From: Escherichia coli
GTDB taxonomy: Bacteria > Pseudomonadota > Gammaproteobacteria > Enterobacterales > Enterobacteriaceae
Assembly: GCF_003018255.1 (NCBI RefSeq)
Contig: NZ_CP027440.1
Strand: one strand, 5' to 3'
DNA length: 64,000 bases
Shown here: positions 49,884 to 64,000 of the stretch, piece after piece
How positions within the stretch are numbered: position 1 is the first letter of the stretch
How the letters are laid out: every line of letters begins with the position of its first letter
The notes under the pieces: model-generated
Database searches by the model: none
Told to the model about the DNA's origin: nothing
The model's input: the letters and a program-made list of their open reading frames with translations, nothing else
Position numbers and translations under genes: made by a program

Positions 49884-49893
49884 TCCCCCCTTC

Positions 49894-49925
49894 AAGGCGC
49901 TGCATCGACAGCGCCTTTTCTTTAT
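49894..49925 (+). terminator. Rho-independent terminator of metG
   Basis: Hairpin aaggcgctgcatcgacagcgcctt followed by ttctttat. Confidence 0.7.
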
Positions 49926-50024
49926 AAATTCCTAAATTTGTTTTCTTGCGATTTTGTCTCTCTCTAACCCGCATAAATACTGGTAGCATCTGCATTCAAC
50001 TGGATAAAATTACAGGGATGCAGA

Positions 50025-53000
50025 ATGAGACACTTTATCTATCAGGACGAAAAATCACATAAATTCTGGGCGGTGGAGCAGCAGGGAAACGAACTGCACA
50101 TCAACTGGGGTAAAGTCGGCACCAACGGACAAAGCCAGGTAAAAAGTTTTGCGGATGCAGCAGCGGCGGAAAAAGCGGGACTGAAGCTGATTGCAGAGAA
50201 GGTGAAGAAGGGGTATGTGGAGCAAGCGAAGGATAATTCTTTGCAACCTTCCCAAACGGTAACGGACTCTCTCAAGGTAGCTGACTTATCCACCATTATT
50301 CAGGAACAACCCTCTTTCGTAGCAGAAACCCGTGCGGCTGACAAAAATACAGATGCTGTTTTACCGTGGCTGGCGAAAGATATTGCTGTCGTTTTTCCGC
50401 CCGAAGTTGTACACACCACGTTAAGTCATCGCCGCTTTCCCGGAGTTCCTGTTCAGCAAGCAGACAAATTGACCCAATTACGTCGCTTAGCCTGTAGTGT
50501 GTCGCAACGGGATAATAAAACAGCCACATTTGACTTCAGCGCCTGTTCTTTAGAATGGCAAAACACCGTCGCCCAGGCGATCAGTCAGATCGACGGCCTG
50601 AAAACAACACAGCTACCATCACCCGTAATGGCTGTACTCACTGCACTTGAAATGAAATGCACAAGATATAAAGAGCGTGAGGATGTTATGGATCAGATTA
50701 TTCAGGAAGGCGGTCTGGAATATGCTACTGATGTAATAATACATCTTCAACAAATATCTATTGAATGGGATTATGTCAACAATAATATTGTTTTCCTGTC
50801 GTCTGGCATTTCACCTGATTACTTGCAGCAATATTCCAGCTTTGAATTACGCCTACGTAAACATTTATCACTGGCGGAAGAGTCTCTCTGGCAAAAATGT
50901 GCACAAAAACTTATTGCCGCAATTCCACATATTCCAGAATGGCGGCAACCATTAATTGCTTTGTTATTACCCGAAAAACCAGAAATTGCACATGAAATTT
51001 CCCAGCGTCTACTGGGGCAAAAGAAATTACCCTCGCTTGAGTGGCTAAAAATAGTGGCGACTGATGAGCACATTCTTGCCTCATTAGAAAAATATCACGA
51101 GCCATATGCCATTTTTGATGATTACTATTGTGGTGCGATATGGTCAGCCACCGTATTACAGGAGCAAGGTGTTACAGCCCTGCCCCGATTTGCTCCCTAT
51201 GCCGCAAGTGACTACTGCGCCGATGTGTTGCGTCATATCAATCATCCGTTCGCATTAACACTGCTTATACGTGTAGCCGGGCATACTAAACGCTGTCACG
51301 ATCGAATGACGAAAGCCTGCGCTGCGTTCCCACACGCAGCACTGGCAGCACTGGCGGAACTTCTAGTGCAAAAAGAAGAGAATAGTTGGCGCATTATGCT
51401 AATGACGATGCTTATCTCGCATCCGACACTAGCAGAACAGGTCATTCCCTGGCTTTCGACACCCGCAGTTGCAGTGCTGAAATCATGTCAGCAACAACTG
51501 ACACAGCCCTCAAACCATGCCAGCGCCGATCTACTGCCGGCCATAGTAGTCTCCCCACCATGGCTTTCGAAAAAGAAAAAATCGCCGATTCCGGTGCTGG
51601 ATTTAGCACCGCTCAACCTCGAATCCATATGCACAATAACCGACACAGAAGCTAAAGAGTTTCAAACTCATTGGGACTGGGAACCGCATAAGCCAAGTGA
51701 AGGTGCTAAAAATTTCCTTTACTCGCTGGGGTATCGCCGCTGGGATTTTGACACATATAAATATATCGGCGCTTCTGACTCGGCAATTGACGCATGGGAA
51801 CGTGAGGACTTCGCTACACTCATCCAAATGTTTAAAGCCCACCATGCACCGTATCAGGGGGAGTGGCATCTCAACTCACTTCCCTTTTTACCTATGCAAA
51901 AAGCGATTAAGCTATGGGAATTTCTCAGCAAAGAGCCGCATACCGCGATAAAACCAGTCATGCTTTATTTGCGACTGGCAGGTATGAGTGGTTTTCTACA
52001 CTCGTTTTCACGCTACCCTCAAGAAGGTTTTGCGGTTGCTAATTATTTTGCCGCAACGGAACTGGCTCCTGCCGTCGCCCGCGCCTTCAACAAACTCAAA
52101 ACATTACGACAAGACGCCAGTAGCTGGCTGCTGAAATACCCGGAACACGCCATTACCGGCCTGCTGCCTGCAGCGCTCGGCAAAGCCAGTGAAGCACAGG
52201 ACAACGCCCGTGCTGCCTTGCGTATGCTTACCGAAAACGGTCATCAGCCATTGCTGCAAGAAATCGCCCGGCGTTATAACCAGCCGGAAGTAACCGATGC
52301 GGTGAACGCTCTACTTGCGCTCGATGCCTTAGATAATCACCCGACAAAAATCCCCACTCTTCCGACCTTTTATCAGCCATCGCTCTGGACGCGCCCGTTA
52401 TTAAAAGCAAACGCCCAATCACTGCCTGATAGCGCACTCCTCCACCTCGGTGAAATGCTCCGCTTCCCTCAGGAAGAGGCACTGTATCCGGGATTATTGC
52501 AGGTGAAAGATGCCTGTACCACCGACTCACTGGCTGAATTTGCCTGGGATCTGTTTACCGCCTGGCAGACCGCTGGCGCGCCGTCGAAAGAGAGTTGGGC
52601 GTTCACTGCGTTAGGCGTTCTCGGTAACGATGACACCGCCCGCAAACTGACGCCTTTGATTCGCGCCTGGCCTGGTGAATCCCAGCATAAACGCGCCACC
52701 GTCGGGTTGGATATTCTCGCTGCTATCGGTAGTGATATCGCCCTGATGCAGCTTAACGGCATCGCCCAGAAACTGAAATTCAAAGCATTACAGGAGCGGG
52801 CAAAAGAAAAAATTGCCGACATTGCCGAGAGCCGCGAACTCACGGTGGCGGAGCTTGAAGATCGGTTAGCACCGGATCTCGGTCTGGATGATAATGGTTC
52901 GTTGTTGCTGGATTTCGGCCCACGCCAGTTCACCGTCAGCTTTGATGAAACCTTAAAACCGTTTGTGCGTGACGCTTCCGGCAGTCGTCTGAAAGACCTG

Positions 53001-53813
53001 CCCAAACCAAACAAAAGCGATGATGAATTACAGGCGAACAATGCTGTTAACCGCTACAAATTGCTGAAAAAAGATGCGCGTACCGTCGCCGCCCAGCAGG
53101 TAGCAAGGCTGGAATCCGCCATGTGCCTGCGTCGCCGCTGGTCACCGGAAAACTTTCAGCTCTTCCTGGTTGAGCATCCGCTGGTCCGCCACTTAACCCG
53201 CCGTCTGATTTGGGGCGTTTATAGCGCCGAAAACCAGCTACTGGCTTGCTTTCGCGTAGCGGAAGATAACAGCTACAGCACCGCTGACGATGATCTTTTC
53301 ACCCTGCCGGAAGGCGATATCTCTATTGGTATTCCTCACGTTCTGGAAATATCACCGACGGATGCTGCCGCCTTCGGGCAGCTTTTTGCCGACTACGAAC
53401 TGTTACCACCGTTCCGCCAGCTTGATCGTAACAGTTACGCGCTGACAGAAGCCGAGCGCAATGCCAGCGAACTGACACGCTGGGCAGGCAGAAAATGCCC
53501 GAGTGGTCGGGTAATGGGGCTGGCAAATAAAGGCTGGATGCGTGGTGAACCGCAGGACGGTGGCTGGATCGGCTGGATGATCAAACCTCTGGGCCGCTGG
53601 TCGTTAATCATGGAAATCGATGAAGGTTTTGCGGTCGGCATGTCGCCAGCCGAACTCAGTGCCGAGCAACTCTTAAGCAAGCTGTGGCTATGGGAAGGCA
53701 AAGCGGAAAGCTATGGCTGGGGGAGTAATTCAACACAGGAAGCGCAGTTCTCCGTACTCGATGCCATCACCGCCAGCGAGCTAATTAACGATATTGAAGC
53801 CCTGTTTGAATAA
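50025..53813 (+). CDS. molR: Large WGR-domain / DUF4132 protein (MolR/YehH family), uninterrupted 1262 aa
   Basis: Single continuous ORF; N-terminal WGR-like domain (FWAVEQQGNELHINWGKVGTNGQ); extensive similarity to the downstream paralog. Confidence 0.75.
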   Translation: MRHFIYQDEKSHKFWAVEQQGNELHINWGKVGTNGQSQVKSFADAAAAEKAGLKLIAEKVKKGYVEQAKDNSLQPSQTVTDSLKVADLSTIIQEQPSFVAETRAADKNTDAVLPWLAKDIAVVFPPEVVHTTLSHRRFPGVPVQQADKLTQLRRLACSVSQRDNKTATFDFSACSLEWQNTVAQAISQIDGLKTTQLPSPVMAVLTALEMKCTRYKEREDVMDQIIQEGGLEYATDVIIHLQQISIEWDYVNNNIVFLSSGISPDYLQQYSSFELRLRKHLSLAEESLWQKCAQKLIAAIPHIPEWRQPLIALLLPEKPEIAHEISQRLLGQKKLPSLEWLKIVATDEHILASLEKYHEPYAIFDDYYCGAIWSATVLQEQGVTALPRFAPYAASDYCADVLRHINHPFALTLLIRVAGHTKRCHDRMTKACAAFPHAALAALAELLVQKEENSWRIMLMTMLISHPTLAEQVIPWLSTPAVAVLKSCQQQLTQPSNHASADLLPAIVVSPPWLSKKKKSPIPVLDLAPLNLESICTITDTEAKEFQTHWDWEPHKPSEGAKNFLYSLGYRRWDFDTYKYIGASDSAIDAWEREDFATLIQMFKAHHAPYQGEWHLNSLPFLPMQKAIKLWEFLSKEPHTAIKPVMLYLRLAGMSGFLHSFSRYPQEGFAVANYFAATELAPAVARAFNKLKTLRQDASSWLLKYPEHAITGLLPAALGKASEAQDNARAALRMLTENGHQPLLQEIARRYNQPEVTDAVNALLALDALDNHPTKIPTLPTFYQPSLWTRPLLKANAQSLPDSALLHLGEMLRFPQEEALYPGLLQVKDACTTDSLAEFAWDLFTAWQTAGAPSKESWAFTALGVLGNDDTARKLTPLIRAWPGESQHKRATVGLDILAAIGSDIALMQLNGIAQKLKFKALQERAKEKIADIAESRELTVAELEDRLAPDLGLDDNGSLLLDFGPRQFTVSFDETLKPFVRDASGSRLKDLPKPNKSDDELQANNAVNRYKLLKKDARTVAAQQVARLESAMCLRRRWSPENFQLFLVEHPLVRHLTRRLIWGVYSAENQLLACFRVAEDNSYSTADDDLFTLPEGDISIGIPHVLEISPTDAAAFGQLFADYELLPPFRQLDRNSYALTEAERNASELTRWAGRKCPSGRVMGLANKGWMRGEPQDGGWIGWMIKPLGRWSLIMEIDEGFAVGMSPAELSAEQLLSKLWLWEGKAESYGWGSNSTQEAQFSVLDAITASELINDIEALFE

Positions 53814-53822
53814 GGAAAGAGC

Positions 53823-56800
53823 ATGGACAAGGAATTACCGTGGCTGGCGGATAACGCCCAACTGGAACTGAAATATAAAAAAGGCAAAACACCACTCAGC
53901 CATCGCAATTGGCCAGGCGAACCGGTACCTGTTATCACTGAAAACATCATTCAGACACTGGGTGATGAATTGCTACAAAAAGCAGAGAAGAAAAAAAACA
54001 TTGTCTGGCGTTATGAAAACTTTTCACTGGAGTGGCAGTCCGCCATCACGCAGGCCATCAACTTGATCGGCGAACACAAACCCTCAATCACGGCCCGGAC
54101 AATGGCGGCGCTAGCCTGTATCGCGCAAAATGATAGCCAACAGTTGCTCGACGAAATCGTCCAACACGAGGGGCTGGAATATGCAACTGAGGTGGTGATT
54201 GCACGCCAGTTTATTGTACGGTGTTATGAGAGTGATCCTCTGGTAGTAACATTGCAATATCAGAACGAGGACTATGGCTATGGTTATCGCTCAGAAACCT
54301 ATAACGAATTCGATCTCCGATTGCGTAAGCATCTCTCTCTGGCAGAGGAAAGCTGCTGGCAGCGTTGCGCCGACAAACTCATTGCCGCACTGCCAGGAAT
54401 AACCAAAGTTCGCCGCCCTTTTATTGCGCTGAACCTCCCGGAAAAACCCGAAATCGCCAACGAGCTGGTAAGCCTTGAATGTTCGCAAACTCATTTTCGC
54501 TCAAAAGAGTGGTTAAAAGTTGTTGCTGATGACCCTAAGGCGGTGAAAGAACTCGCACGTTACTGGAGCCAGGATATATTTAGCGATCGAGAAGCCAGCT
54601 ACATGTCGCATGAAAACCACTTCGGCTACGCGGCCTGCGCTGCCCTTTTGCGCGAACAAGGACTGGCAGCCGTTCCGCGCCTCGCGATGTATGCACATAA
54701 AGAAGATTGCGGCAGTCTGCTGGTACAAATTAACCATCCGCAAGTCATCCGCACCTTGCTACTGGTGGCTGATAAAAACAAACCCAGCCTGCAACGTGTG
54801 GCTAAATACAGTAAAAACTTCCCCCATGCGACGCTCGCCGCACTGGCAGAACTGCTGGCGTTAAAAGCCCCCCCTGCGCGCCCTGGTTATCCCATCATCG
54901 AAGACCAAAAGCTGCCTGCACAGCAAAAAGCACGTGATGAATACTGGCATACGCTGTTACAAACGCTGATGGCATCGCAGCCACAACTGGCAGAAGAGGT
55001 GATGCCGTGGTTAAGTACTCAAGCCCGGGCAGTGCTGAATAGTTATTTATCGGCACCGCCCAAAACGGTTATTGATAGCACCGATAACAGCCAAATGCCT
55101 GAAATCCTCGTTTCACCACCGTGGCGTAGTAAGAAAAAAATGACAGCTCCACGTCTTGATTTGGCACCGCTCGAATTAACCCCGCAAGTTTACTGGCAAC
55201 CAGGCGAACAAGAGAGGCTTGCCTCCACTGAGTCTGCCCGTTATTTCAGCACGGAATCTCTTGCTGAACGCATGGAACAAAAAAGTGGACGAGTTGTATT
55301 ACAGGAACTGGGTTTTGGGGATGATGTATGGCTGTTTCTGAATTATATACTCCCCGGAAAACTGGATGCTGCACGCAATTCACTCATTGTTCAGTGGCAT
55401 TACTACCCAGGGCGGGTTGAAGAGATCATGAATGGCTGGAGCTCCCCGGAAGCTCAATTAGCAGAACAGGCGCTTCGCAGCGGTCACGTAGAAGTGTTAA
55501 TTAACATATGGGAAAATGACAGCTACTCACGTTATCGTCCGGAAAAGAGTGTCTGGAACCTGTATTTATTGGCACAGTTGCCGCGTGAGATGGCTTTGCC
55601 TTTCTGGCTACGTATCAATGAGAAAAAGCATCTGTCTGCGGGTGAGGACTATTTTCTCAGTATCTTCGGATTGGATGCTCTACCAGGTCTGCTGTTGGCT
55701 TTTTCACATCGTCCAAAAGAAACATTTCCGTTAATTTTAAATTTTGGCGCAACAGAACTGGCCCTGCCCGTTGCCCGCGTCTGGCGACGTTTCGCGGCGC
55801 AGCGTGATCTGGCCCGCCAGTGGATTTTACAATGGCCGGAACATACGGCTACTGCACTTATCCCTCTTGTCTTCACCAAACCCAGCGATAATAGCGAAGC
55901 TGCATTACTTGCCCTACGTTTACTTTACGAACAGGGACATGGTGAATTGCTGCAAACCGCGGCAAACCGCTGGCAGCGTACAGATGTATGGCCTGCCCTG
56001 GAGCATTTACTTAAACAGAGTCCAATAGAGATTTACCCGGCACGCATGCCAAAAGCCCCTGATTTCTGGCATCCGCTAATGTGGTCCAGGCCGCGCCTAA
56101 TCATTAATCATCAACTTATTACCGATGACGCTCTGGAAATTATCGGCGAAATGCTGCGCTTTACCCAGGGGGGACGTTTTCATAGCGGGCTGGAACAACT
56201 GAAAACGTTCTGCCAGCCGCAAACGCTGGCAGCTTTTGCCTGGGATCTCTTCACTGCGTGGCAACAAGCTGGTGCCCCCGCAAAAGACAACTGGGCATTT
56301 CTGGCGTTAAGTCTCTTTGGTGACGAAAGCACGGCACGGGATCTAACGACACAGATCCTCGCCTGGCCACAAGAAGGCAAATCTACCCGTGCTGTCAGTG
56401 GCCTGAACATCCTTACCCTGATGAATAATGATATGGCGCTGATACAGCTGCATCATATATCGCAACGGGCGAAATCCCGCCCCTTACGTGATAACGCGGC
56501 GGAATTTCTTCAGGTGGTCGCAGAAAATCGCGGGCTAAGCCAGGAAGAGTTAGCGGACAGATTAGTCCCAACACTGGGCCTTGATGATCCGCAGGCGTTG
56601 AGTTTTGATTTTGGTCCCCGGCAGTTTACCGTTCGCTTCGATGAAAACCTTAACCCGGTTATCTTTGATCAGCAAAACGTTCGCCAGAAAAGCGTTCCCC
56701 GGTTGCGCACCGATGACGATCAACTGAAAGCGCCCGAGGCACTGGCCCGATTAAAAGGGCTAAAAAAAGATACGACTCAGGTGAGCAAAAACCTGCTCCC

Positions 56801-57455
56801 CCGTCTTGAAGCTGCCCTGCGTACCACCCGACGCTGGTCGCTGGCAGATTTTCATTCTCTGTTTGTTAATCATCCCTTTACCCGTCTGGTTACCCAGCGA
56901 TTAATATGGGGCGTGTATCCGGCAAATGAACCGCGTCGTTTACTCAACGCCTTTCGTGTGGCCGCAGAGGGGGAGTTCTGCAATGCGCAAGATGAGCCCA
57001 TTGACCTGCCTGCGGATGCTCTGATTGGCATTGCCCACCCGTTAGAAATGACAGAAGGAATGCGCAGTGAATTTGCACAGCTTTTTGCCGATTACGAAAT
57101 TATGCCGCCTTTTCGCCAGTTGGCGCGGCGCACGGTGCTGCTCACACCTGACGAGTCAACCAGTAACAGCCTGACTCGCTGGGAAGGTAAATCCGCTACC
57201 GTTGGGCAGCTTATGGGAATGCGATACAAAGGCTGGGAGTCAGGCTATGAGGACGCATTTGTCTATGGCCTGGGCGAGTACCGGCTGGTCCTTAAGTTTT
57301 CACCCGGTTTTAACCACTACAATGTTGATAGCAAAGCGTTAATGAGCTTCCGTTCTCTTCGAGTGTACCGTGACAATAAATCCGTCACTTTTGCCGAACT
57401 TGATGTGTTTGATTTGAGTGAGGCGTTAAGCGCACCTGACGTCATTTTCCATTAA
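53823..57455 (+). CDS. yehI: Large DUF4132 protein YehI, paralog of MolR
   Basis: 1210 aa ORF; shared blocks with MolR (LRLRKHLSLAEES, AWDLFTAWQ.AGAP, GEMLRF). Confidence 0.8.
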   Translation: MDKELPWLADNAQLELKYKKGKTPLSHRNWPGEPVPVITENIIQTLGDELLQKAEKKKNIVWRYENFSLEWQSAITQAINLIGEHKPSITARTMAALACIAQNDSQQLLDEIVQHEGLEYATEVVIARQFIVRCYESDPLVVTLQYQNEDYGYGYRSETYNEFDLRLRKHLSLAEESCWQRCADKLIAALPGITKVRRPFIALNLPEKPEIANELVSLECSQTHFRSKEWLKVVADDPKAVKELARYWSQDIFSDREASYMSHENHFGYAACAALLREQGLAAVPRLAMYAHKEDCGSLLVQINHPQVIRTLLLVADKNKPSLQRVAKYSKNFPHATLAALAELLALKAPPARPGYPIIEDQKLPAQQKARDEYWHTLLQTLMASQPQLAEEVMPWLSTQARAVLNSYLSAPPKTVIDSTDNSQMPEILVSPPWRSKKKMTAPRLDLAPLELTPQVYWQPGEQERLASTESARYFSTESLAERMEQKSGRVVLQELGFGDDVWLFLNYILPGKLDAARNSLIVQWHYYPGRVEEIMNGWSSPEAQLAEQALRSGHVEVLINIWENDSYSRYRPEKSVWNLYLLAQLPREMALPFWLRINEKKHLSAGEDYFLSIFGLDALPGLLLAFSHRPKETFPLILNFGATELALPVARVWRRFAAQRDLARQWILQWPEHTATALIPLVFTKPSDNSEAALLALRLLYEQGHGELLQTAANRWQRTDVWPALEHLLKQSPIEIYPARMPKAPDFWHPLMWSRPRLIINHQLITDDALEIIGEMLRFTQGGRFHSGLEQLKTFCQPQTLAAFAWDLFTAWQQAGAPAKDNWAFLALSLFGDESTARDLTTQILAWPQEGKSTRAVSGLNILTLMNNDMALIQLHHISQRAKSRPLRDNAAEFLQVVAENRGLSQEELADRLVPTLGLDDPQALSFDFGPRQFTVRFDENLNPVIFDQQNVRQKSVPRLRTDDDQLKAPEALARLKGLKKDTTQVSKNLLPRLEAALRTTRRWSLADFHSLFVNHPFTRLVTQRLIWGVYPANEPRRLLNAFRVAAEGEFCNAQDEPIDLPADALIGIAHPLEMTEGMRSEFAQLFADYEIMPPFRQLARRTVLLTPDESTSNSLTRWEGKSATVGQLMGMRYKGWESGYEDAFVYGLGEYRLVLKFSPGFNHYNVDSKALMSFRSLRVYRDNKSVTFAELDVFDLSEALSAPDVIFH

Positions 57456-57516: not shown

Positions 57517-57870
57517 ATGATCGTGCAAAAAGAGCTGGTTGCTATTTACGATTATGAGGTCCCTGTACCTGAAGATCCGTTTTCCTTCAGACTTGAGATC
57601 CATAAATGCTCTGAATTATTTACAGGTTCCGTCTATCGACTGGAGCGATTCCGGCTACGTCCAACATTTCATCAACGTGATCGAGAAGATGCTGACCCGC
57701 TAATAAATGATGCGTTGATTTATATAAGAGATGAGTGTATTGATGAGCGGAAATTACGAGGTGAATCACCTGAAACTGTAATAGCAATTTTTAATCGTAA
57801 ACTACAGAATATATTCAACCAACTAATAGAATATTACTTTATTAAAGGGGGAAGCGGTTTTCCCCCTTAG
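57517..57870 (+). CDS. yehK: Small uncharacterised protein YehK
   Basis: 117 aa ORF; its last codons run into the terminator hairpin shared with zorO. Confidence 0.65.
   Translation: MIVQKELVAIYDYEVPVPEDPFSFRLEIHKCSELFTGSVYRLERFRLRPTFHQRDREDADPLINDALIYIRDECIDERKLRGESPETVIAIFNRKLQNIFNQLIEYYFIKGGSGFPP
57844..57867. terminator. Bidirectional hairpin terminator shared by yehK (+) and zorO (-)
   Basis: Stem ggggga/tccccc with loop agcggttt; T-rich on both sides. Confidence 0.55.
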
Positions 57871-57889: not shown

Positions 57890-57979
57890 TTACTTCAACA
57901 AATCAATCAACCGTAACAGAGCCACTAATAGCTCCAGTACAGCAATGAGCACGGTTAACTTTTGTGTCAGCGTGTCCAT
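57890..57979 (-). CDS. zorO: ZorO type I toxin, 29 aa (MDTLTQKLTVLIAVLELLVALLRLIDLLK)
   Basis: Reverse complement of 57890..57979: SD aaggagag, ATGGACACGCTGACACAAAAG...TTGAAGTAA; matches ZorO as recalled. Confidence 0.85.
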   Translation of the reverse strand: MDTLTQKLTVLIAVLELLVALLRLIDLLK

Positions 57980-58160
57980 CCGCTCTCCTTATTAAGGAGC
58001 GCAACACCAGCACCTTACCCTTACACTGCCTGTCGACACTGGTTTACGTTTGTTGAGTCGCCATGTTGCACTCCGGATCAGAGCACTACCTGCGGCACCA
58101 CCCGTCCGGTAGCCAGGACTTGAAATGGGTTCGATCCGGCGCAACTTCCCAACAGTCAGG

Positions 58161-58211
58161 ATTATAAATCTCATTATCTTAATTGCAACACGGTCCAGCG
58201 GTGGTTATAAT
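58161..58211. promoter_or_regulatory. Divergent sigma70 promoters for zorO (-) and orzO (+) sharing one palindromic -35 hexamer
   Basis: + strand: -35 ttgcaa 58183-58188, 17 bp spacer, -10 tataat 58206-58211. - strand: -10 tataat (complement of 58161-58166), 16 bp spacer, same ttgcaa hexamer. Confidence 0.6.
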
Positions 58212-58217
58212 TCGTTC

Positions 58218-58304
58218 GTTGAGATGCCATGTTGCACTATCAGTAACTTAACATCAAAGTAGTAAATAAAAGAACCTGCCTCACCAGCAGGTTCTTTTAT
58301 TTTC
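58218..58304 (+). ncRNA. orzO: OrzO small RNA antitoxin (approximate ends)
   Basis: Starts about 7 nt after tataat; contains gccatgttgcact complementary to the zorO 5' UTR (plus-strand coordinates about 58060-58073); terminator aaagaacctgcctcaccagcaggttctttt plus T tract. Confidence 0.65.
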
Positions 58305-58497
58305 TGCGATCTACTTTCCAGATATTTTTCGCCAATAGCCCACCATAAATATTCACATCCCGGCCAAATAGTACGTTGATTATAAAATCGATGAATTTAT
58401 AAATAAAAATGAGTTATATGATGAATTAATAAAAACAGTAATCATTTTATTAAAGGGGGAAACGGTATTCCCCCTTAGATGCGTTTCAATTTGCCCG

Positions 58498-58587
58498 TTA
58501 CTTCAACAAATCAATCAACCGTAACAGAGCCACTAATAGCTCCAGTACAGCAATGAGCACGGTTAACTTTTGTGTCAGCGTGTCCAT
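58498..58587 (-). CDS. zorP: ZorP type I toxin, second copy, 29 aa
   Basis: Reverse complement of 58498..58587 encodes a peptide identical or near-identical to ZorO, with the same SD. Confidence 0.8.
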   Translation of the reverse strand: MDTLTQKLTVLIAVLELLVALLRLIDLLK

Positions 58588-58768
58588 CCGCTCTCCTTAT
58601 TAAGGAGCGCAACACCAGCACCTTACCCTTACACTGCCTGTCGATACTGGTTTACGTATGTTGGTACGAAACGTTGCTCTCCGGATCAGGGCACCGCCTG
58701 CGGCACCACCCGTCCAGCAGCCAGGACTTAAAATTGGTCCGATCCGGCACAACCTCCCAACGGGCAGG

Positions 58769-58819
58769 ATTATAAATCTCATTCACTGAATTGCAATGGA
58801 GTGTGGATATGGTTATAAT
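58769..58819. promoter_or_regulatory. Divergent promoters for zorP (-) and orzP (+), second module
   Basis: + strand: ttgcaa 58791-58796, 17 bp spacer, tataat 58814-58819. Confidence 0.55.
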
Positions 58820-58825
58820 TTATTC

Positions 58826-58909
58826 GTTGGTACGAAATGTTGCACAATCAGCAAGTTAGCGTCATTGTAGTAAATAAAAGAACCTGCCTCACCAGCAGGT
58901 TTTTTTATT
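58826..58909 (+). ncRNA. orzP: OrzP small RNA antitoxin (approximate ends)
   Basis: Contains ttggtacgaaatgttgcac, imperfectly matching gttggtacgaaacgttgc in the zorP leader; terminator aaaagaacctgcctcaccagcaggttttttt. Confidence 0.6.
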
Positions 58910-59017
58910 TACTGTGATCTGCTTTCCAGATATTTTTCGCTCAAACAACTAATGCGGCAAACATTTATTGCGCGTAAAATATCGTTTATTTCATTAATAC
59001 ATTTCAGGGATGAATAT

Positions 59018-60106
59018 ATGTCACCGCAGAATAATCATCTGCAGCGTCCGCCTGCCGCTGTGTTATACGCCGATGAACTGGCAAAATTAAAACAAAATGA
59101 TCACGCACCTTGCCCGCCCGGTTGGCAGTTAAGTTTGCCTGCGGCCCGCGCTTTTATCCTTGGCGATAGCGCGCAAAATATTAGCCGTAAAGTCGTGATC
59201 AGTCCCTCCGCTGTCGAACGCATGTTAGTCACTCTCGCTACCGGGCGCGGTTTGATGTTGGTGGGGGAACCTGGCACCGCAAAATCGCTCCTGTCTGAAT
59301 TACTGGCAACCGCTATTAGCGGCGATGCCGGGTTAACCATCCAGGGCGGCGCATCTACCACCGAAGATCAAATCAAGTACGGCTGGAACTACGCCCTGCT
59401 TATCAACCATGGTCCGTCAACGGAAGCGCTGGTCCCTGCCCCGCTTTACCAGGGAATGCGCGACGGCAAAATTGTCCGTTTTGAAGAGATAACGCGTACA
59501 CCGCTGGAAGTACAAGACTGTCTGTTAGGTATGCTTTCTGACAGGGTAATGACGGTGCCGGAACTCACCGGTGAAGCCAGTCAGCTCTATGCGCGAGAAG
59601 GCTTTAATATTATTGCCACTGCCAATACCCGCGATCGCGGCGTCAATGAGATGAGTGCCGCGCTAAAGCGTCGCTTCGATTTTGAAACCGTCTTTCCGAT
59701 TATGGATTTCGCCCAGGAGCTGGAACTGGTCGCCAGTGCTTCGGCGCGTTTGCTGGCCCATAGCGGTATTCCGCATAAAGTGCCTGACGCGGTACTGGAG
59801 TTACTGGTCCGCACCTTCCGCGATCTGCGTGCCAACGGCGAAAAGAAAACGTCAATGGATACCCTGACGGCAATTATGTCCACCGCTGAAGCCGTGAACG
59901 TGGCCCACGCAGTGGGCGTCCGCGCCTGGTTTTTAGCGAATCGCGCAGGTGAGCCAGCCGATCTGGTGGACTGTATTGCCGGAACCATCGTCAAAGATAA
60001 CGAAGAAGATCGCGCTCGTCTGCGCCGTTACTTCGAACAGCGAGTCGCCACACATAAAGAAGCTCACTGGCAGGCTTATTATCAAGCTCGCCACCGCCTG
60101 CCGTGA
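59018..60106 (+). CDS. yehL: MoxR-type AAA+ ATPase YehL
   Basis: ORF 58952..60106; start placed at ATG 59018 (MSPQNNHLQRPP...); Walker A GEPGTAKS, Walker B-like IVRFEEI. Confidence 0.8.
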   Translation: MSPQNNHLQRPPAAVLYADELAKLKQNDHAPCPPGWQLSLPAARAFILGDSAQNISRKVVISPSAVERMLVTLATGRGLMLVGEPGTAKSLLSELLATAISGDAGLTIQGGASTTEDQIKYGWNYALLINHGPSTEALVPAPLYQGMRDGKIVRFEEITRTPLEVQDCLLGMLSDRVMTVPELTGEASQLYAREGFNIIATANTRDRGVNEMSAALKRRFDFETVFPIMDFAQELELVASASARLLAHSGIPHKVPDAVLELLVRTFRDLRANGEKKTSMDTLTAIMSTAEAVNVAHAVGVRAWFLANRAGEPADLVDCIAGTIVKDNEEDRARLRRYFEQRVATHKEAHWQAYYQARHRLP

Positions 60107-60116
60107 GGAAAGATGC

Positions 60117-62396
60117 ATGAGCGAGCCGTTAATTGTCGGCATCCGGCATCATAGTCCGGCCTGCGCCCGGCTGGTGAAATCGTTAATCGAAAGCCAGCGG
60201 CCACGATACGTGTTGATTGAAGGCCCGGCTGATTTTAATGACCGGGTAGACGAACTGTTTTTAGCCCACCAGCTTCCGGTAGCTATTTACAGTTATTGCC
60301 AGTATCAGGACGGTGCAGCCCCCGGGCGTGGTGCCTGGACGCCATATGCTGAATTTTCGCCGGAGTGGCAGGCGCTACAAGCCGCTCGTCGTATTCAGGC
60401 ACAAACTTACTTCATCGATTTGCCTTGCTGGGCGCAGAGTGAAGAAGAGGACGATTCGCCTGATACGCAAGAGGAAAGCCAGACCTTGCTGCTGCGTGCC
60501 ACCCGCATGGATAACAGCGACACCCTGTGGGATCACTTGTTCGAAGATGAAAGCCAGCAAACTGCATTACCCTCTGCACTGGCGCACTATTTTGCACAAC
60601 TGCGGGGCGATTCCCCCGGAGATGCTCTCAATCGTCAGCGCGAAGACTTTATGGCCCGCTGGATTGGTTGGGCGATGCAGCAAAACAATGGCGACGTGTT
60701 AGTCGTCTGCGGTGGCTGGCACGCTTCTGCACTGGCAAAAATGTGGCGCGAATGCCCGCAGGAAATTAACACGCCGGAATTGCCCTCGCTGGCAGATGCC
60801 GTTACAGGTTGTTATCTCACCCCCTACAGTGAAAAGCGCCTTGATGTGCTGGCAGGATACCTTTCCGGTATGCCTGCCCCGGTCTGGCAAAACTGGTGCT
60901 GGCGGTGGGGCTTGCAGCAGGCAGGTGAACAACTGCTGAAAACGGTTCTTACCCGTTTGCGCCAGCACCACTTGCCTGCTTCAACAGCGGATATGGCTGC
61001 CGCTCATCTGCATGCGATGGCACTGGCACAGTTGCGTGGTCATACACTACCGTTACGCACTGACTGGCTGGATGCCATAGCAGGCTCGCTGATTAAAGAA
61101 GCCCTGAATGCGCCGTTGCCGTGGAGCTATCGCGGCGTTATTCATCCCGATACCGATCCGATTCTGCTAACGTTGATAGACACATTAGCGGGTGACGGAT
61201 TCGGTAAACTTGCCCCCTCTACGCCACAGCCGCCTCTGCCAAAAGATGTCACCTGCGAACTGGAACGTACAGGAATCTCTTTTCCGGCGGAGCTTACTTT
61301 AAATCGCTTTACCCCCGATGGACTGGCGCAAAGTCAGGTGTTACATCGGCTGGTAATACTGGAGATCCCAGGGGTTGTGCGCCAGCAGGGAAGTACACTG
61401 ACACTTGCAGGCAACGGTGAAGAACGCTGGAAATTAACCCGCCCGCTTAGCCAACATGCGGCATTAATTGAGGCCGCCTGCTTTGGTGCCACACTCCAGG
61501 AAGCCGCACGCAATAAATTAGAAGCCGATATGCTGGACGCGGGTGGAATCGGCAGTATCACCACATGTCTTAGCCAGGCGGCGTTAGCGGGTCTGGCGTC
61601 CTTCAATCAACAATTACTGGAGCAACTCACATTATTAATCGCCCAGGAAAATCAGTTTGCCGAAATGGGCCAGGCGCTGGAAGTGCTATATGCCTTATGG
61701 CGGCTGGATGAAATTAGCGGTATGCAGGGCGCGCAGATATTACAAACGACATTATGCGCGGCCATCGATCGCACGCTGTGGCTATGTGAATCCAACGGCA
61801 GACCGGATGAAAAGGAGTTTCACGCTCACCTGCATAGCTGGCAAGCGCTTTGCCATATCCTGCGCGATCTACATAGCGGCGTTAATTTACCCGGCGTTTC
61901 TCTTTCTGCGGCGGTAGCCTTACTGGAGCGACGCAGTCAGGCGATTCATGCCCCGGCGCTGGATCGCGGCGCGGCACTTGGCGCACTGATGCGTCTGGAA
62001 CATCCCAACGCCAGTGCCGAAGCGGCGCTGACAATGCTGGTGCAATTATCCCCGACACAATCCGGCGAGGCGCTGCACGGTTTGCTGGCATTAGCCCGTC
62101 ATCAACTGGCCTGTCAGCCGGTATTTATCGCCGGTTTCAGCAGTCATTTAAATCAACTGAGTGATGCCGATTTTATCAATGCCCTGCCCGATTTACGCGC
62201 GGCGATGGCCTGGCTACCACCACGAGAACGCGGGACGCTGGCGCATCAGGTGCTTGAGCATTATCAACTGGTGCAACTTCCCGTTTCGGCACTGCAAATG
62301 CCGTTGCATTGTCCACCACAAGACATTGCACATCATCAACAACTCGAACAGCAGGCACTGGCATCGCTGCAACACTGGGGAGTTTTCCATGTCTGA
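60117..62396 (+). CDS. yehM: Large uncharacterised protein YehM (759 aa)
   Basis: ORF 59949..62396; start placed at ATG 60117 (MSEPLIVGIRHHSPACARLVK...) 11 nt after yehL stop. Confidence 0.75.
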   Translation: MSEPLIVGIRHHSPACARLVKSLIESQRPRYVLIEGPADFNDRVDELFLAHQLPVAIYSYCQYQDGAAPGRGAWTPYAEFSPEWQALQAARRIQAQTYFIDLPCWAQSEEEDDSPDTQEESQTLLLRATRMDNSDTLWDHLFEDESQQTALPSALAHYFAQLRGDSPGDALNRQREDFMARWIGWAMQQNNGDVLVVCGGWHASALAKMWRECPQEINTPELPSLADAVTGCYLTPYSEKRLDVLAGYLSGMPAPVWQNWCWRWGLQQAGEQLLKTVLTRLRQHHLPASTADMAAAHLHAMALAQLRGHTLPLRTDWLDAIAGSLIKEALNAPLPWSYRGVIHPDTDPILLTLIDTLAGDGFGKLAPSTPQPPLPKDVTCELERTGISFPAELTLNRFTPDGLAQSQVLHRLVILEIPGVVRQQGSTLTLAGNGEERWKLTRPLSQHAALIEAACFGATLQEAARNKLEADMLDAGGIGSITTCLSQAALAGLASFNQQLLEQLTLLIAQENQFAEMGQALEVLYALWRLDEISGMQGAQILQTTLCAAIDRTLWLCESNGRPDEKEFHAHLHSWQALCHILRDLHSGVNLPGVSLSAAVALLERRSQAIHAPALDRGAALGALMRLEHPNASAEAALTMLVQLSPTQSGEALHGLLALARHQLACQPVFIAGFSSHLNQLSDADFINALPDLRAAMAWLPPRERGTLAHQVLEHYQLVQLPVSALQMPLHCPPQDIAHHQQLEQQALASLQHWGVFHV

Positions 62397-63525
62397 ACTG
62401 AACGATCTTCTGACCACCCGTGAGCTACAACGCTGGCGATTAATTCTTGGCGAAGCGGCAGAAACGACGCTTTGTGGGCTGGATGACAACGCCCGGCAGA
62501 TAGACCACGCGATGGAGTGGCTGTATGGGCACGATCCTGAACGGTTCCAGCGTGGTGAACGCTCCGGTGGATTAGGTTGCTCAAATCTCACCCCCCCTGA
62601 GTGGATCAACAGTATTCACACGCTGTTTCCGCAACAGGTGATTGAACGGCTGGAAAGCGATGCCGTACTGCGCTACGGCATTGAAGATGTGGTGACGAAT
62701 CTCGACGTGCTGGAACGTATGCAACCGTCTGAAAGCCTGCTACGCGCCGTTTTGCACACCAAACATCTGATGAATCCCGAAGTACTGGCTGCCGCCCGCC
62801 GGATAGTACGCCAGGTTGTTGAAGAAATTATGGCTCGACTGGCAAAGGAAGTTCGTCAGGCTTTTTCTGGTGTCCGCGATCGCCGCCGTCGCTCATTTAT
62901 TCCACTGGCGCGTAATTTCGATTTCAAAAGTACGCTGCGTGCCAACCTGCAACACTGGCATCCGCAACACGGCAAGTTGTATATCGAATCCCCCCGCTTT
63001 AACAGCCGCATTAAGCGCCATAGCGATCAATGGCAACTGGTCTTACTGGTTGATCAAAGCGGATCGATGGTTGACTCGGTGATCCACTCAGCGGTGATGG
63101 CGGCCTGTTTATGGCAGTTACCCGGCATTCGTACCCATCTGGTGGCGTTTGACACCAGCGTGGTTGATCTCACGGCAGACGTTGCCGATCCGGTAGAGTT
63201 ATTAATGAAAGTACAACTGGGCGGCGGGACCAATATCGCCAGTGCCGTGGAGTATGGTCGGCAACTTATTGAACAACCTGCAAAAAGTGTCATTATCCTC
63301 GTGAGCGATTTCTATGAAGGTGGTTCATCATCATTGCTGACGCATCAGGTGAAAAAGTGTGTCCAGAGCGGCATCAAAGTGCTGGGACTGGCGGCGCTCG
63401 ATAGCACCGCAACACCTTGCTATGACCGCGATATGGCCCAGGCACTGGTTAATGTCGGTGCACAAATAGCCGCCATGACGCCGGGCGAACTGGCGACCTG
63501 GCTTGCGGAGAATCTTCAGTCATGA
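62389..63525 (+). CDS. yehP: von Willebrand factor A domain protein YehP
   Basis: ORF 62161..63525; start placed at ATG 62389 (MSELNDLLTTRELQRW..., 378 aa) overlapping yehM stop; MIDAS motif LVDQSGSM. Confidence 0.8.
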   Translation: MSELNDLLTTRELQRWRLILGEAAETTLCGLDDNARQIDHAMEWLYGHDPERFQRGERSGGLGCSNLTPPEWINSIHTLFPQQVIERLESDAVLRYGIEDVVTNLDVLERMQPSESLLRAVLHTKHLMNPEVLAAARRIVRQVVEEIMARLAKEVRQAFSGVRDRRRRSFIPLARNFDFKSTLRANLQHWHPQHGKLYIESPRFNSRIKRHSDQWQLVLLVDQSGSMVDSVIHSAVMAACLWQLPGIRTHLVAFDTSVVDLTADVADPVELLMKVQLGGGTNIASAVEYGRQLIEQPAKSVIILVSDFYEGGSSSLLTHQVKKCVQSGIKVLGLAALDSTATPCYDRDMAQALVNVGAQIAAMTPGELATWLAENLQS

Positions 63526-64000
63526 ATTCACTACGTCCGGAATTATTAGAACTGACACCACAGGCACTGACGGCGTTAAGCAATGCCGGTTTTGTTAAGC
63601 GCAGCCTTAAAGAACTGGAAAATGGCAACGTCCCGGAAATCAGTCATGAGAACGGCGCTTTAATCGCCACCTTCAGTGACGGTGTCCGCACCCAGCTGGC
63701 GAACGGCCAGGCACTGAAAGAGGCTCAGTGCAGCTGCGGGGCCAGCGGCATGTGCCGCCATCGCGTGATGCTGGTTTTAAGTTATCAGCGACTTTGCGCC
63801 ACCACCCAGCCTACGGAAAAAGAAGAAGAGTGGGATCCGGCAATCTGGCTGGAAGAACTGGCTACCCTGCCCGATGCCACCCGCAAACGCGCACAGGCGC
63901 TGGTCGCTAAAGGCATCACCATTGAGTTGTTCTGTACGCCGGGCGAAATTCCCTCTGCCCGCTTACCGATGAGCGATGTACGTTTTTATTCCCGCAGCAG
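63522..64000 (+). CDS. yehQ: SWIM zinc-finger protein YehQ, N-terminal portion; continues past the window end
   Basis: ATG 63522 overlaps yehP stop (caTGAat); translation MNSLRPELLELTPQALTALSN... contains CSCGASGMCRHRVMLVL (CxC...CxH SWIM-like); no stop before window end. Confidence 0.7.
   Translation, partial: MNSLRPELLELTPQALTALSNAGFVKRSLKELENGNVPEISHENGALIATFSDGVRTQLANGQALKEAQCSCGASGMCRHRVMLVLSYQRLCATTQPTEKEEEWDPAIWLEELATLPDATRKRAQALVAKGITIELFCTPGEIPSARLPMSDVRFYSRS

What the first reader, a model, noticed from the sequence alone, without database searches (positions are those of the whole stretch)
58952..64000. yehLMPQ: MoxR AAA+ ATPase + large partner + VWA + SWIM zinc-finger cluster of unknown function, translationally coupled
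Four co-directional genes with overlapping or near-abutting stop/start codons (yehL stop to yehM start 11 nt; yehM/yehP and yehP/yehQ overlap) encode a MoxR-type AAA+ ATPase (GEPGTAKS), a 759 aa protein with no motif I can assign, a VWA/MIDAS protein (DQSGSM) and a SWIM-type zinc-finger protein. MoxR-VWA pairs act as chaperone-like remodelling modules. No function is established for this cluster to my knowledge. It sits directly downstream of two giant WGR-DUF4132 proteins and a duplicated type I toxin locus. A role in a regulated stress or conflict system is speculation.
Basis: partly seen in the sequence, partly recalled or inferred. Interest (0 to 1): 0.65.

Follow-up and report, generated by a model that had tools for sequence, protein, structure and literature searches.

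The report
Conserved five-gene MoxR–VWA machine
The four E. coli genes yehLMPQ are real, and with the giant WGR-DUF4132 genes just upstream they form a five-part ATP-driven protein machine of untested function, conserved from E. coli to actinomycetes, whose "unknown" 759-residue subunit carries a protease/esterase-like (TIKI/TraB) domain.

Summary
The window is E. coli chromosome, with intact yehL (59018-60106), yehM (60117-62396), yehP (62389-63525) and the first 159 codons of yehQ (63522 onward). Stop and start codons overlap or nearly abut.

The domain calls are right: AAA_5/MoxR-class ATPase, CoxE-type VWA with a complete MIDAS, and a SWIM protein.

In 60 of 63 well-flanked loci from Proteobacteria, Myxococcota and Actinomycetota, L-M-P-Q sit next to one to five DUF4132 giant proteins, usually WGR-bearing. 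No other neighbour is conserved. YehH and YehI therefore belong to the system.

YehM (DUF5682) is not motif-less. A high-confidence model shows an N-terminal TIKI/TraB/ChaN/erythromycin-esterase fold with invariant His/Glu/Arg residues, followed by a HEAT-like solenoid. YehM-YehP fusions occur naturally. YehQ models as SWIM plus an RPA70-like tandem OB pair.

In enterics the first gene carries a published SOS box.

My inferred reading is a MoxR/MIDAS motor coupled to a TIKI-type hydrolase and nucleic-acid-binding modules, acting on the co-encoded giant proteins. A phage-defence role is neither supported nor excluded: PADLOC gives no hit, the locus is core in E. coli, and its flanks are housekeeping genes. 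No function has been tested.

The parts
50000..50015 (+). LexA-like SOS box CTGGATAAAATTACAG, 10 nt upstream of the yehH (molR) start codon
   Evidence: It has one mismatch to CTGT-N8-ACAG. Alone this is weak: 27 such sites occur in the window against 17 expected. However, molR is listed among E. coli genes with a known SOS box (PMC6590174). The same CTGG-N8-ACAG is kept just upstream of the first DUF4132 gene in Klebsiella and Intestinirhabdus, but not in Serratia or other phyla.
50025..53813 (+). yehH/molR-type giant protein (1262 aa): N-terminal WGR domain, long helical middle, very conserved C-terminal ~450 aa including DUF4132 (about residues 986-1171)
   Evidence: Annotation. WGR is supported by PDB 2ra8 at 2e-18 and, with the profile, PARP3 WGR at 1e-3. 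DUF4132 scores 1.5e-51. A DUF4132 protein is present next to L-M-P-Q in 61 of 63 loci.
53823..57455 (+). yehI (1210 aa): WGR-less paralogue of YehH, second DUF4132 protein
   Evidence: It is 37% identical to YehH over about 1180 aa, aligning from YehH residue 110 onward. The same tandem pair occurs in Klebsiella.
59018..60106 (+). yehL (362 aa): AAA_5 / MoxR-family (YehL subfamily) ATPase; Walker A at 59264-59287
   Evidence: Pfam AAA_5 2.6e-34. The best PDB sequence hits are Midasin AAA modules at 3e-10, then MoxR 2r44. Walker A, the Walker B pair E156/E157, N203 and R218/R219 are invariant in 82 relatives.
60117..62396 (+). yehM (759 aa, DUF5682): N-terminal TIKI/TraB/ChaN/Ere-like domain (about residues 1-215, 60117-60761) plus a helical HEAT/ARM-like solenoid
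62389..63525 (+). yehP (378 aa): CoxE-type VWA protein with a complete MIDAS (DxSxS at 63052-63066, T281, D307)
   Evidence: VWA_CoxE 2e-71. D222, S224, S226, T281 and D307 are invariant in 81 of 81 relatives.
63522..64000 (+). yehQ, first 159 of 667 codons (cut by the window end): SWIM zinc finger (C70-H80 at 63729-63761). The full protein adds a second SWIM-like motif, helical bundles and a tandem OB-fold pair.

Best explanation
yehLMPQ is four fifths of a self-contained, widely conserved five-component cassette. The order is WGR-DUF4132 giant protein(s) (here YehH and YehI), then YehL, YehM, YehP, YehQ.

Shown here: the components always travel together, their catalytic motifs are intact, and their folds can be assigned.

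Inferred mechanism:
1. YehL forms a MoxR/Midasin-type AAA+ ring.
2. YehP is its MIDAS adaptor and grips an acidic residue of a client, as CbbO, NorD or the Midasin MIDAS domain do.
3. YehM is physically attached to YehP (the two are fused in some genomes). It supplies a HEAT-like scaffold and a TIKI/TraB-type hydrolase site, most likely a site-specific peptidase.
4. YehQ (SWIM plus an RPA70-like tandem OB pair) and the WGR domain of the giant protein supply recognition of single-stranded or broken nucleic acid.
5. The co-encoded giant DUF4132 proteins are the clients or outputs, which ATP hydrolysis remodels or exposes to cleavage.

In Enterobacteriaceae the first gene is under LexA (SOS) control. 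The most likely trigger is therefore damaged or abnormal DNA. That DNA could be the cell's own or an invader's.
For: Cassette:
- YehM relatives occur in at least 562 species-level genomes and about 2200 clusters at 50% identity.
- Of 63 loci with enough flank, L is present in 63, P in 63, Q in 61, a DUF4132 protein in 61, and all of them in 60. The order is almost always D-L-M-P-Q.
- Independent Pfam annotation confirms the cassette in Variovorax, Serratia, Klebsiella and three further contigs.
- Flanks differ between genera and no other neighbour is conserved, so any client must be encoded inside the cassette or be universal.

Motor:
- Walker A, Walker B, sensor-1 and Arg residues are invariant in 82 of 82 YehL relatives. 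The full MIDAS is invariant in 81 of 81 YehP relatives.
- YehL's closest solved relatives by sequence are Midasin AAA modules.

Hydrolase:
- The invariant H11/H12, E35, R175/E176 and H202 match the superfamily's 2His/2Glu-plus-basic-residue signature described in PMC6254334.
- Sub-threshold TraB and ChaN Pfam hits appear in individual family members.

Linkage of M to P:
- Full-length M-P fusions occur in four separate 50%-identity clusters and in a verified contig.
- A 4-nt overlap is the norm.

Nucleic-acid theme:
- The WGR domain matches PARP3 WGR at 1e-3 with the profile.
- The SWIM motif is invariant.
- molR/yehH has a known SOS box, and the box is conserved in Klebsiella and Intestinirhabdus.
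- WGR and DUF4132 genes of Deinococcus belong to the DdrO/IrrE DNA-damage regulon (PMC8533742).
Against: - No experiment links any of these proteins to each other, to DNA or to proteolysis.
- OB and SWIM folds are generic and also bind proteins. The Foldseek E-values are only about 3e-3.
- The LexA-like box is confined to Enterobacteriaceae.
- In this strain yehK, a terminator-like hairpin and the zor/orz locus separate yehHI from yehLMPQ. In K-12 yehL/yehM respond to H-NS instead (PMC3686432).
- WGR was detected in only 52 of 78 loci.
- That the giant proteins are the clients is an argument from co-encoding only.
Confidence: 0.35

Rival explanations
1. It is an anti-phage or other conflict system of the 'MoxR-vWA plus third component' type. 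The motor would set a threshold, YehQ and WGR would sense invader nucleic acid, and the TIKI peptidase and/or the DUF4132 domain would act as effector, causing abortive infection or growth arrest. This overlaps with the best explanation in mechanism and differs in biological purpose.
For: - The distribution is patchy with differing flanks, which implies horizontal transfer.
- DUF4132 genes expand to 2-5 tandem paralogues in actinomycetes.
- The cassette is common in Actinomycetota and Myxococcota. Whether it is enriched there was not measured. Kaur et al. 2020 describe their MoxR-vWA ternary conflict systems as preponderant in multicellular prokaryotes, and derive them from CoxD/CoxE-type pairs (PMC7159879).
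- There is a weak bpMoxR Pfam signal: 0.002 here and faint or weak elsewhere.
- A type I toxin-antitoxin pair is inserted inside the locus in this strain.
- yehP has been suggested to be horizontally acquired (PMC2790909).
Against: - None of 7 proteins hits any of the 5027 PADLOC models.
- The locus is present at one syntenic site in 98% of complete E. coli genomes, unlike typical accessory defence islands.
- Flanking genes in six inspected loci are housekeeping or regulatory, not defence genes.
- It is rare on plasmids (37 of 72,556 records, mostly chromids or mislabelled chromosomes) and absent from GenBank phages.
- No recognised toxic effector domain is present.
Confidence: 0.25
2. It is a cofactor- or metal-centre-insertion chaperone system. 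It would be analogous to CoxD/CoxE, NorQ/NorD or the class I chelatases CobS/CobT/CobN, in which an AAA_5 ATPase and a VWA protein work on a subunit of about 140 kDa. The DUF4132 giant would be that large subunit. This would fit the old name MolR, 'molybdate metabolism regulator'.
For: - YehP is specifically of the CoxE VWA type at 2e-71.
- There are weak NCBIfam similarities to cobaltochelatase (YehP) and to GvpN (YehL).
- A PHROG 'porphyrin biosynthesis' AAA family hits YehL.
- The three-part ATPase, VWA and giant-subunit layout resembles CobNST and BchHID (my own knowledge of those systems).
- ChaN, the top structural match of YehM, is a haem-binding protein.
Against: - No metalloenzyme or cofactor-biosynthesis gene is conserved next to the cassette in about 80 loci.
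- The giant proteins show no relation to CobN or BchH. Pfam finds only WGR and DUF4132.
- WGR, SWIM and OB modules have no precedent in such systems.
- In Deinococcus, molybdenum genes did not co-vary with the WGR and DUF4132 genes (PMC8533742).
Confidence: 0.1
3. The narrow reading: yehLMPQ is an independent four-gene operon, and its adjacency to yehH/yehI is only local synteny in Escherichia.
For: - In this strain about 1.5 kb separates yehI from yehL, containing yehK, a terminator-like hairpin and two zor/orz modules.
- In K-12 yehL/yehM have their own H-NS-bound upstream region, while molR has its own BglJ-RcsB-activated promoter that is not H-NS repressed.
Against: - A DUF4132 gene lies beside L-M-P-Q in 61 of 63 loci across three phyla, usually abutting yehL. 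Gaps are 60-80 nt in Klebsiella and Serratia and near zero in several others.
- When the DUF4132 gene is moved, it stays attached: it follows Q in Burkholderia and is divergent in two myxobacterial loci.
Confidence: 0.05

Closest known systems
MoxR-VWA chaperone pairs (RavA-ViaA, CbbQ-CbbO, NorQ-NorD, CoxD-CoxE); YehL is the type of the 'YehL subfamily' of MoxR ATPases
   Same: An AAA+ ATPase of the MoxR/AAA_5 class is encoded next to a VWA protein with an intact MIDAS. The VWA is of the CoxE type. The catalytic motifs are conserved (PMC3893208).
   Different: No client enzyme is encoded nearby. Three further obligatory partners are present that none of the characterised pairs has: a TIKI-like/HEAT protein, a SWIM/OB protein and WGR-DUF4132 giants.
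vWA-MoxR ternary conflict systems (VMAP, iSTAND, beta-propeller and FtsH types; Kaur et al. 2020, PMC7159879)
   Same: A MoxR-vWA pair, thought to derive from CoxD/CoxE, is coupled to extra components that would sense and execute. Both are common in actinomycetes and myxobacteria. A peptidase-type module is attached to the vWA side.
   Different: No VMAP, iSTAND, beta-propeller or FtsH component is present. That paper mentions neither YehL nor WGR nor TraB. The bpMoxR Pfam match is only 0.002. The effector-like domains are constant rather than swapped between loci. The locus is core in E. coli.
Midasin/Rea1 (eukaryotic AAA_5 ring plus MIDAS domain that pulls assembly factors off pre-60S ribosomes)
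   Same: YehL's closest solved relatives by sequence are Midasin AAA modules, at 3e-10. The motor-plus-MIDAS logic is shared, as is the association with large helical-repeat proteins.
   Different: Midasin is a single 5000-residue chain with six AAA modules. Here the ATPase, the MIDAS protein and the solenoids are separate gene products, and nothing links the locus to ribosomes.
TIKI / TraB / PrgY / ChaN / erythromycin-esterase superfamily (includes the Ras-cleaving RRSP and HopBA1)
   Different: Sequence similarity is below detection: no PDB hit, and Pfam TraB/ChaN hits only at 0.06-0.08 in single members. The domain is fused to a solenoid of about 540 residues and operon-coupled to an AAA+/VWA motor, which is not described for any member that I could find.
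Class I chelatases (CobS-CobT-CobN; BchI-BchD-BchH)
   Same: An AAA+ ATPase, a VWA protein and a third subunit of about 140 kDa are encoded together.
   Different: The giant proteins are unrelated to CobN or BchH (Pfam finds only WGR and DUF4132). No tetrapyrrole genes are nearby.

Membership tests
MoxR family of AAA+ ATPases (YehL subfamily) | AAA+ core with Walker A, Walker B, sensor-1 and arginine residues | tested here: met
   GEPGTAKS at 83-90. E156/E157, N203 and R218/R219 are invariant in 82 of 82 relatives.
MoxR family of AAA+ ATPases (YehL subfamily) | Profile match to the MoxR/dynein-related AAA class | tested here: met
   AAA_5 scores 2.6e-34. AAA_3 (MoxR proper) scores only 0.014, so this is a sister subfamily, not MoxR proper. 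E. coli YehL is the name-giving member of the subfamily (PMC3893208).
MoxR family of AAA+ ATPases (YehL subfamily) | Gene adjacent to a VWA-protein gene | tested here: met
   YehP-type VWA is present in 63 of 63 well-flanked loci.
MoxR family of AAA+ ATPases (YehL subfamily) | Hexameric ring with ATPase activity stimulated by the VWA partner | not testable with these tools
   This needs biochemistry or a multimer prediction.
VWA/MIDAS proteins, CoxE type | Complete MIDAS motif DxSxS...T...D | tested here: met
   D222, S224, S226, T281 and D307 are invariant in 81 of 81 relatives. VWA_CoxE scores 2e-71 over the full model.
TIKI/TraB/ChaN/Ere superfamily | Parallel beta-sheet core flanked by helices (TIKI fold) | tested here: met
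TIKI/TraB/ChaN/Ere superfamily | Catalytic 2His/2Glu set plus a conserved basic residue (PMC6254334) | tested here: inconclusive
   H11 (with H12), E35, R175/E176 and H202 are invariant or nearly so at the ends of the core strands. I could not superpose coordinates to prove residue equivalence.
TIKI/TraB/ChaN/Ere superfamily | Significant sequence-profile match to a family member | tested here: not met
   There are no TIKI-family hits in PDB profile searches. Pfam TraB_PrgY_gumN is at best 0.083 and ChaN 0.061, each in single members. Membership is therefore at the fold or superfamily level only.
SWIM zinc-finger proteins | CxCxnCxH signature | tested here: met
RPA-like tandem OB ssDNA-binding modules | Two consecutive OB barrels superposable on RPA70 DBD-A/B | tested here: inconclusive
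Known anti-phage defence systems (PADLOC-DB v2) | Any component matching a defence-system HMM | tested here: not met
   There are 0 hits for YehH, I, K, L, M, P and Q at E up to 0.01. The database dates from 2023, so later systems are not covered.
vWA-MoxR ternary conflict systems (Kaur et al. 2020) | Third component of VMAP, iSTAND, beta-propeller or FtsH type with swappable effector domains | tested here: not met
   Pfam on all components finds none of these. The partner set is constant across 60 loci.
LexA (SOS) regulon | LexA box in the promoter, and DNA-damage induction | tested here: inconclusive
   A box with one mismatch lies at 50000-50015 and is conserved in Klebsiella and Intestinirhabdus only. 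molR is listed as having a known SOS box. Whether yehLMPQ itself is induced was not tested.

The most novel reading that the evidence does not exclude
The cassette is a previously undescribed kind of nucleic-acid-triggered, ATP-gated proteolytic switch. WGR and RPA-like OB/SWIM modules would detect broken or single-stranded DNA. A Midasin-like AAA ring with a MIDAS adaptor would then remodel giant DUF4132 proteins so that a TIKI-family peptidase processes them, giving a DNA-damage checkpoint or an immune output. That would make it a bacterial system combining the sensor logic of PARP and RPA with the motor logic of Midasin, present in the core genome of E. coli.
Probability: 0.2. Interest if true: 0.8.

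Novelty: new variant of a known kind. Interest (0 to 1): 0.55.

Why it matters
These are core genes of E. coli, the best-studied bacterium, and they are still without a function. YehL is one of only two MoxR ATPases in E. coli and gives its name to an uncharacterised subfamily.

Three results turn a vague 'unknown operon' into testable hypotheses:
- The real unit has five components and is conserved in at least 562 species.
- The DUF5682 subunit carries a TIKI/TraB-like catalytic domain.
- Two components carry nucleic-acid-binding-type modules, and in enterics the first gene is under SOS control.

The direct tests are point mutants of H11, E35 and H202, DNA-binding assays, and DNA-damage and phage challenges. 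If the mechanism holds, it would add a new partner architecture to MoxR-VWA biology, and it would assign a role to three sizeable domain families of unknown function (DUF5682, DUF4132 and the YehQ family).

Tried and rejected
- PADLOC, NCBIfam and PHROGs scans of all components gave nothing informative. PADLOC found nothing. NCBIfam had only sub-cutoff AAA and VWA hits. PHROGs returned near-identical small families that look like host DNA in mis-delimited prophages.
- PDB sequence and profile searches with YehM (whole protein and N-domain), YehP and the giant proteins found no relatives except WGR.
- Profile-profile comparison of YehM, YehQ and the giant proteins with each other showed no shared domains.
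- I looked for a sixth conserved neighbour or a client enzyme by clustering all flanking ORFs of about 80 loci. Only genus-level synteny appeared.
- YehK is not a conserved component. It occurs only in Escherichia and is unrelated to the small ORF at the same position in Variovorax.
- LexA boxes were sought upstream of the cassette in all loci using proteobacterial and actinobacterial consensus sequences. They are conserved only in Enterobacteriaceae, so SOS control is not a general property.
- A phage or plasmid origin was tested by tblastn. The cassette is essentially absent from phages and rare on true plasmids.
- Eight literature searches found no functional study. Many 'yehL' hits are the author K. 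Yehl.
- The giant proteins could not be modelled.


Full report
**What is in the window.** The region is E. coli chromosome. The 5 kb of the finding is 99.7% identical to strain JNE112863 and occurs once, at a syntenic site, in 5337 of 5426 complete E. coli genomes.

Transferring the RefSeq annotation and translating the window gives intact genes:

| Gene | Coordinates | Length |
|---|---|---|
| yehH/molR-type | 50025-53813 | 1262 aa |
| yehI | 53823-57455 | 1210 aa |
| yehK-like | 57517-57870 | 117 aa |
| yehL | 59018-60106 | 362 aa |
| yehM | 60117-62396 | 759 aa |
| yehP | 62389-63525 | 378 aa |
| yehQ | 63522 onward | 667 aa; only residues 1-159 lie inside the window |

The annotated start, which also fits the orthologues, is 59018. 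The junctions are as described: 10 nt between yehL and yehM with a GGAAAG, an 8-nt yehM/yehP overlap, and an ATGA yehP/yehQ overlap.

The space between yehK and yehL holds two zor/orz type I toxin-antitoxin modules. Rfam OrzO-P matches 58225-58298 and 58833-58906, and identical 29-aa ZorO-type ORFs lie at 57890-57979 and 58498-58587 on the minus strand.

**Domain assignments.**
- YehL matches AAA_5 at 2.6e-34. Its best solved relatives by sequence are Midasin AAA modules at 3e-10, ahead of a MoxR structure. The literature treats E. coli YehL as the type of one of seven MoxR subfamilies, uncharacterised (PMC3893208).
- YehP matches VWA_CoxE at 2e-71.
- YehQ has a SWIM motif, CSCGASGMCRH, at 70-80 and a second one at 166-176.
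- YehM matches only DUF5682 at 5e-95.
- YehH has an N-terminal WGR domain (2ra8 at 2e-18; PARP3 WGR at 1e-3 with a profile) and DUF4132 near the C-terminus.
- YehI is a WGR-less paralogue, 37% identical.

**The real unit has five components.** YehM relatives form about 2200 clusters at 50% identity. A scan of one genome per species found at least 562 species with a relative. These span Enterobacterales, other Gamma- and Betaproteobacteria, Myxococcota and many Actinomycetota. Plasmid hits add Rhizobiaceae.

I searched the ORFs of 83 fetched loci with the E. coli proteins. Among 63 loci with enough flank:

| Component | Loci with it |
|---|---|
| YehL | 63 |
| YehP | 63 |
| YehQ | 61 |
| at least one DUF4132 giant protein | 61 |
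| all of the above | 60 |

- The order is almost always D(1-5 copies)-L-M-P-Q. In two Burkholderia loci D follows Q, and in two myxobacterial loci it is divergent.
- Precomputed Pfam annotation confirms the same set in Variovorax, Serratia, Klebsiella and three other contigs.
- Flanks differ between genera, and clustering of all flanking ORFs finds no further conserved neighbour.
- YehK occurs only in Escherichia and is unrelated to a small ORF at the same junction in Variovorax.

yehK and the zor/orz modules are lineage-specific inserts at the D|L junction.

**Integrity of the catalytic parts.** Across 81-82 relatives the following are invariant:
- YehL: Walker A, the Walker B pair E156/E157, N203 and R218/R219.
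- YehP: all five MIDAS residues, D222, S224, S226, T281 and D307.

The SWIM Cys/His residues are invariant in 45 YehQ relatives. Stop/start overlaps of 4 nt are the norm for M/P (53 of 82) and P/Q (60 of 78). This is compatible with coupled translation but does not show it.

**YehM.** The 87-sequence alignment shows invariant or nearly invariant residues in three blocks. They are G-V-R10-H11-H12-S-P followed by L-I-E35-G-P; R175-E176-x-x-M179; and G-G-x-H202. The pattern resembles the GxxH / E / R[DN]xxM / GxGH pattern of TraB/TIKI proteins; that comparison comes from my own knowledge.

- An AlphaFold2 model built on this alignment is confident (pLDDT 93.5, pTM 0.91).
- The remaining 540 or so residues match HEAT/ARM solenoids: symplekin, huntingtin and importins.
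- The superfamily's active enzymes share a 2His/2Glu set plus a basic residue. Members lacking that set, such as PMT, are inactive (PMC6254334). YehM keeps a matching set.
- Sequence profiles alone do not reach the superfamily. Single family members give sub-threshold TraB (0.083) and ChaN (0.061) Pfam hits.
- Full-length YehM-YehP fusions exist in four distinct 50%-identity clusters and on a verified contig. This argues that the two proteins work as one unit.

**YehQ.** The model (pLDDT 92.9) shows the SWIM region, helical bundles and a beta-rich centre.
- The best Foldseek hits are RPA70 DBD-A/B on ssDNA (probability 0.99, E 3e-3), baculovirus LEF-3, Teb1 AB, CTC1 and MNDA HIN.
- This supports a tandem OB pair, but the scores are marginal and OB folds are versatile.

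**The giant proteins.** In a 28-sequence alignment the C-terminal 450 or so residues are strikingly conserved across phyla, with many invariant charged residues. Nothing in the PDB or Pfam explains them beyond 'DUF4132'. I could not model them. A WGR-bearing copy was detected in 52 of 78 loci. Some misses are due to truncated flanks.

**Regulation.** CTGGATAAAATTACAG lies 10 nt before the yehH start. molR is listed among E. coli genes with a known SOS box (PMC6590174).
- The same box is kept in Klebsiella and Intestinirhabdus but not in Serratia or other phyla.
- The molR promoter is activated by BglJ-RcsB (PMC3950696).
- In K-12, yehL and yehM are up-regulated in hns/stpA mutants, with H-NS bound in the adjacent intergenic region (PMC3686432).
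- In Deinococcus, WGR and DUF4132 genes belong to the DdrO/IrrE DNA-damage regulon (PMC8533742).

**Interpretation.** Three things are shown: a constant five-component cassette, intact ATPase and MIDAS motifs, and fold assignments for YehM and YehQ.

The mechanism is inferred. A YehL ring with the YehP MIDAS adaptor would act as a remodelling motor, as in CbbQO, NorQD or Midasin. YehM, attached to YehP, would add a scaffold and a TIKI-type hydrolase. YehQ and WGR would bind single-stranded or broken nucleic acid. The co-encoded giants would be the clients or outputs. I give the full chain about 0.35.

The conflict-system reading (0.25) shares the mechanism but changes the purpose.
- In its favour: patchy distribution, paralogue expansion, and frequent occurrence in actinomycetes and myxobacteria, as with the vWA-MoxR ternary systems (PMC7159879).
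- Against it: no PADLOC hit, core status in E. coli, housekeeping flanks, and near absence from plasmids and phages.

A metal- or cofactor-insertion role (0.1) fits the CoxE-type VWA and the chelatase-like three-part layout. It lacks any neighbouring client, and the giants are unrelated to CobN or BchH.

**Novelty.** The genes and their 'unknown function' status are long known, and the YehL subfamily was named in the MoxR literature. I did not find three things described in the searchable literature: the five-gene definition of the system, the TIKI-like catalytic domain in DUF5682, and the OB/SWIM architecture of YehQ. I file it as a new variant of the MoxR-VWA kind, of moderate interest.

Noticed in passing
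window 57890-58906: There are two tandem zor/orz type I toxin-antitoxin modules. Identical 29-aa ZorO-type ORFs (MDTLTQKLTVLIAVLELLVALLRLIDLLK) lie at 57890-57979 and 58498-58587 on the minus strand. OrzO-P RNAs lie at 58225-58298 and 58833-58906 on the plus strand. The modules are inserted between yehK and yehL. At least 80% of this 1.1-kb spacer is found in 3390 of 5426 E. coli genomes.
   Followed up: partly
window 63247-63262: The sequence GTGGAGTATGGTCGGC sits in frame in yehP. It is the cassette reported as a +1 ribosomal frameshift site, giving a 303-aa truncated YehP in reporter and mass-spectrometry experiments (PMC2790909). I did not test whether it is conserved outside Escherichia.
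   Followed up: partly
window 57517-57870: yehK (117 aa) has no Pfam, NCBIfam or PADLOC match and occurs only in Escherichia loci. It is followed by a terminator-like hairpin at 57845-57868. The D|L junction seems to be an insertion hotspot: an unrelated 145-aa ORF sits there in Variovorax (L002:8387-8824).
   Followed up: partly
L086 (GCA_022841245.1), 3227-23468: Two cassettes lie in tandem. The first has a true YehM-YehP fusion (1180 aa). The second has a HEAT_2 protein (580 aa) and a 501-aa protein where the DUF4132 giant would be. A DNA-ligase-like gene lies upstream on the other strand.
   Followed up: no
PHROGs families phrog_30700, 33984, 31592, 29006, 20839, 36602 and 36295: These are near-identical matches to E. 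coli YehM (split at residue 509/517), YehP, YehQ, YehH (split) and YehK. Yet GenBank phage genomes hold no E. coli-like YehM. The families probably derive from host DNA with pseudogenised yehM and molR inside a mis-delimited prophage.
   Followed up: partly
window 49883-50025 and L004/L006/L009: The LexA-like box upstream of the first DUF4132 gene is conserved only in the metG-linked Enterobacteriaceae loci. The same promoter is reported to be activated by BglJ-RcsB (PMC3950696).
   Followed up: partly
Actinomycetota loci, e.g. L040, L046, L056, L070: DUF4132 genes are amplified to 2-5 tandem paralogues upstream of single-copy L-M-P-Q. Some paralogues lack the WGR domain.
   Followed up: partly
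phage collection hit H34, MT835988.1 11208-12770: A 14-kb 'Bacteriophage sp.' contig from human faeces encodes a distant YehM relative (27% identity over residues 1-515). The record has no annotation and was not examined.
   Followed up: no
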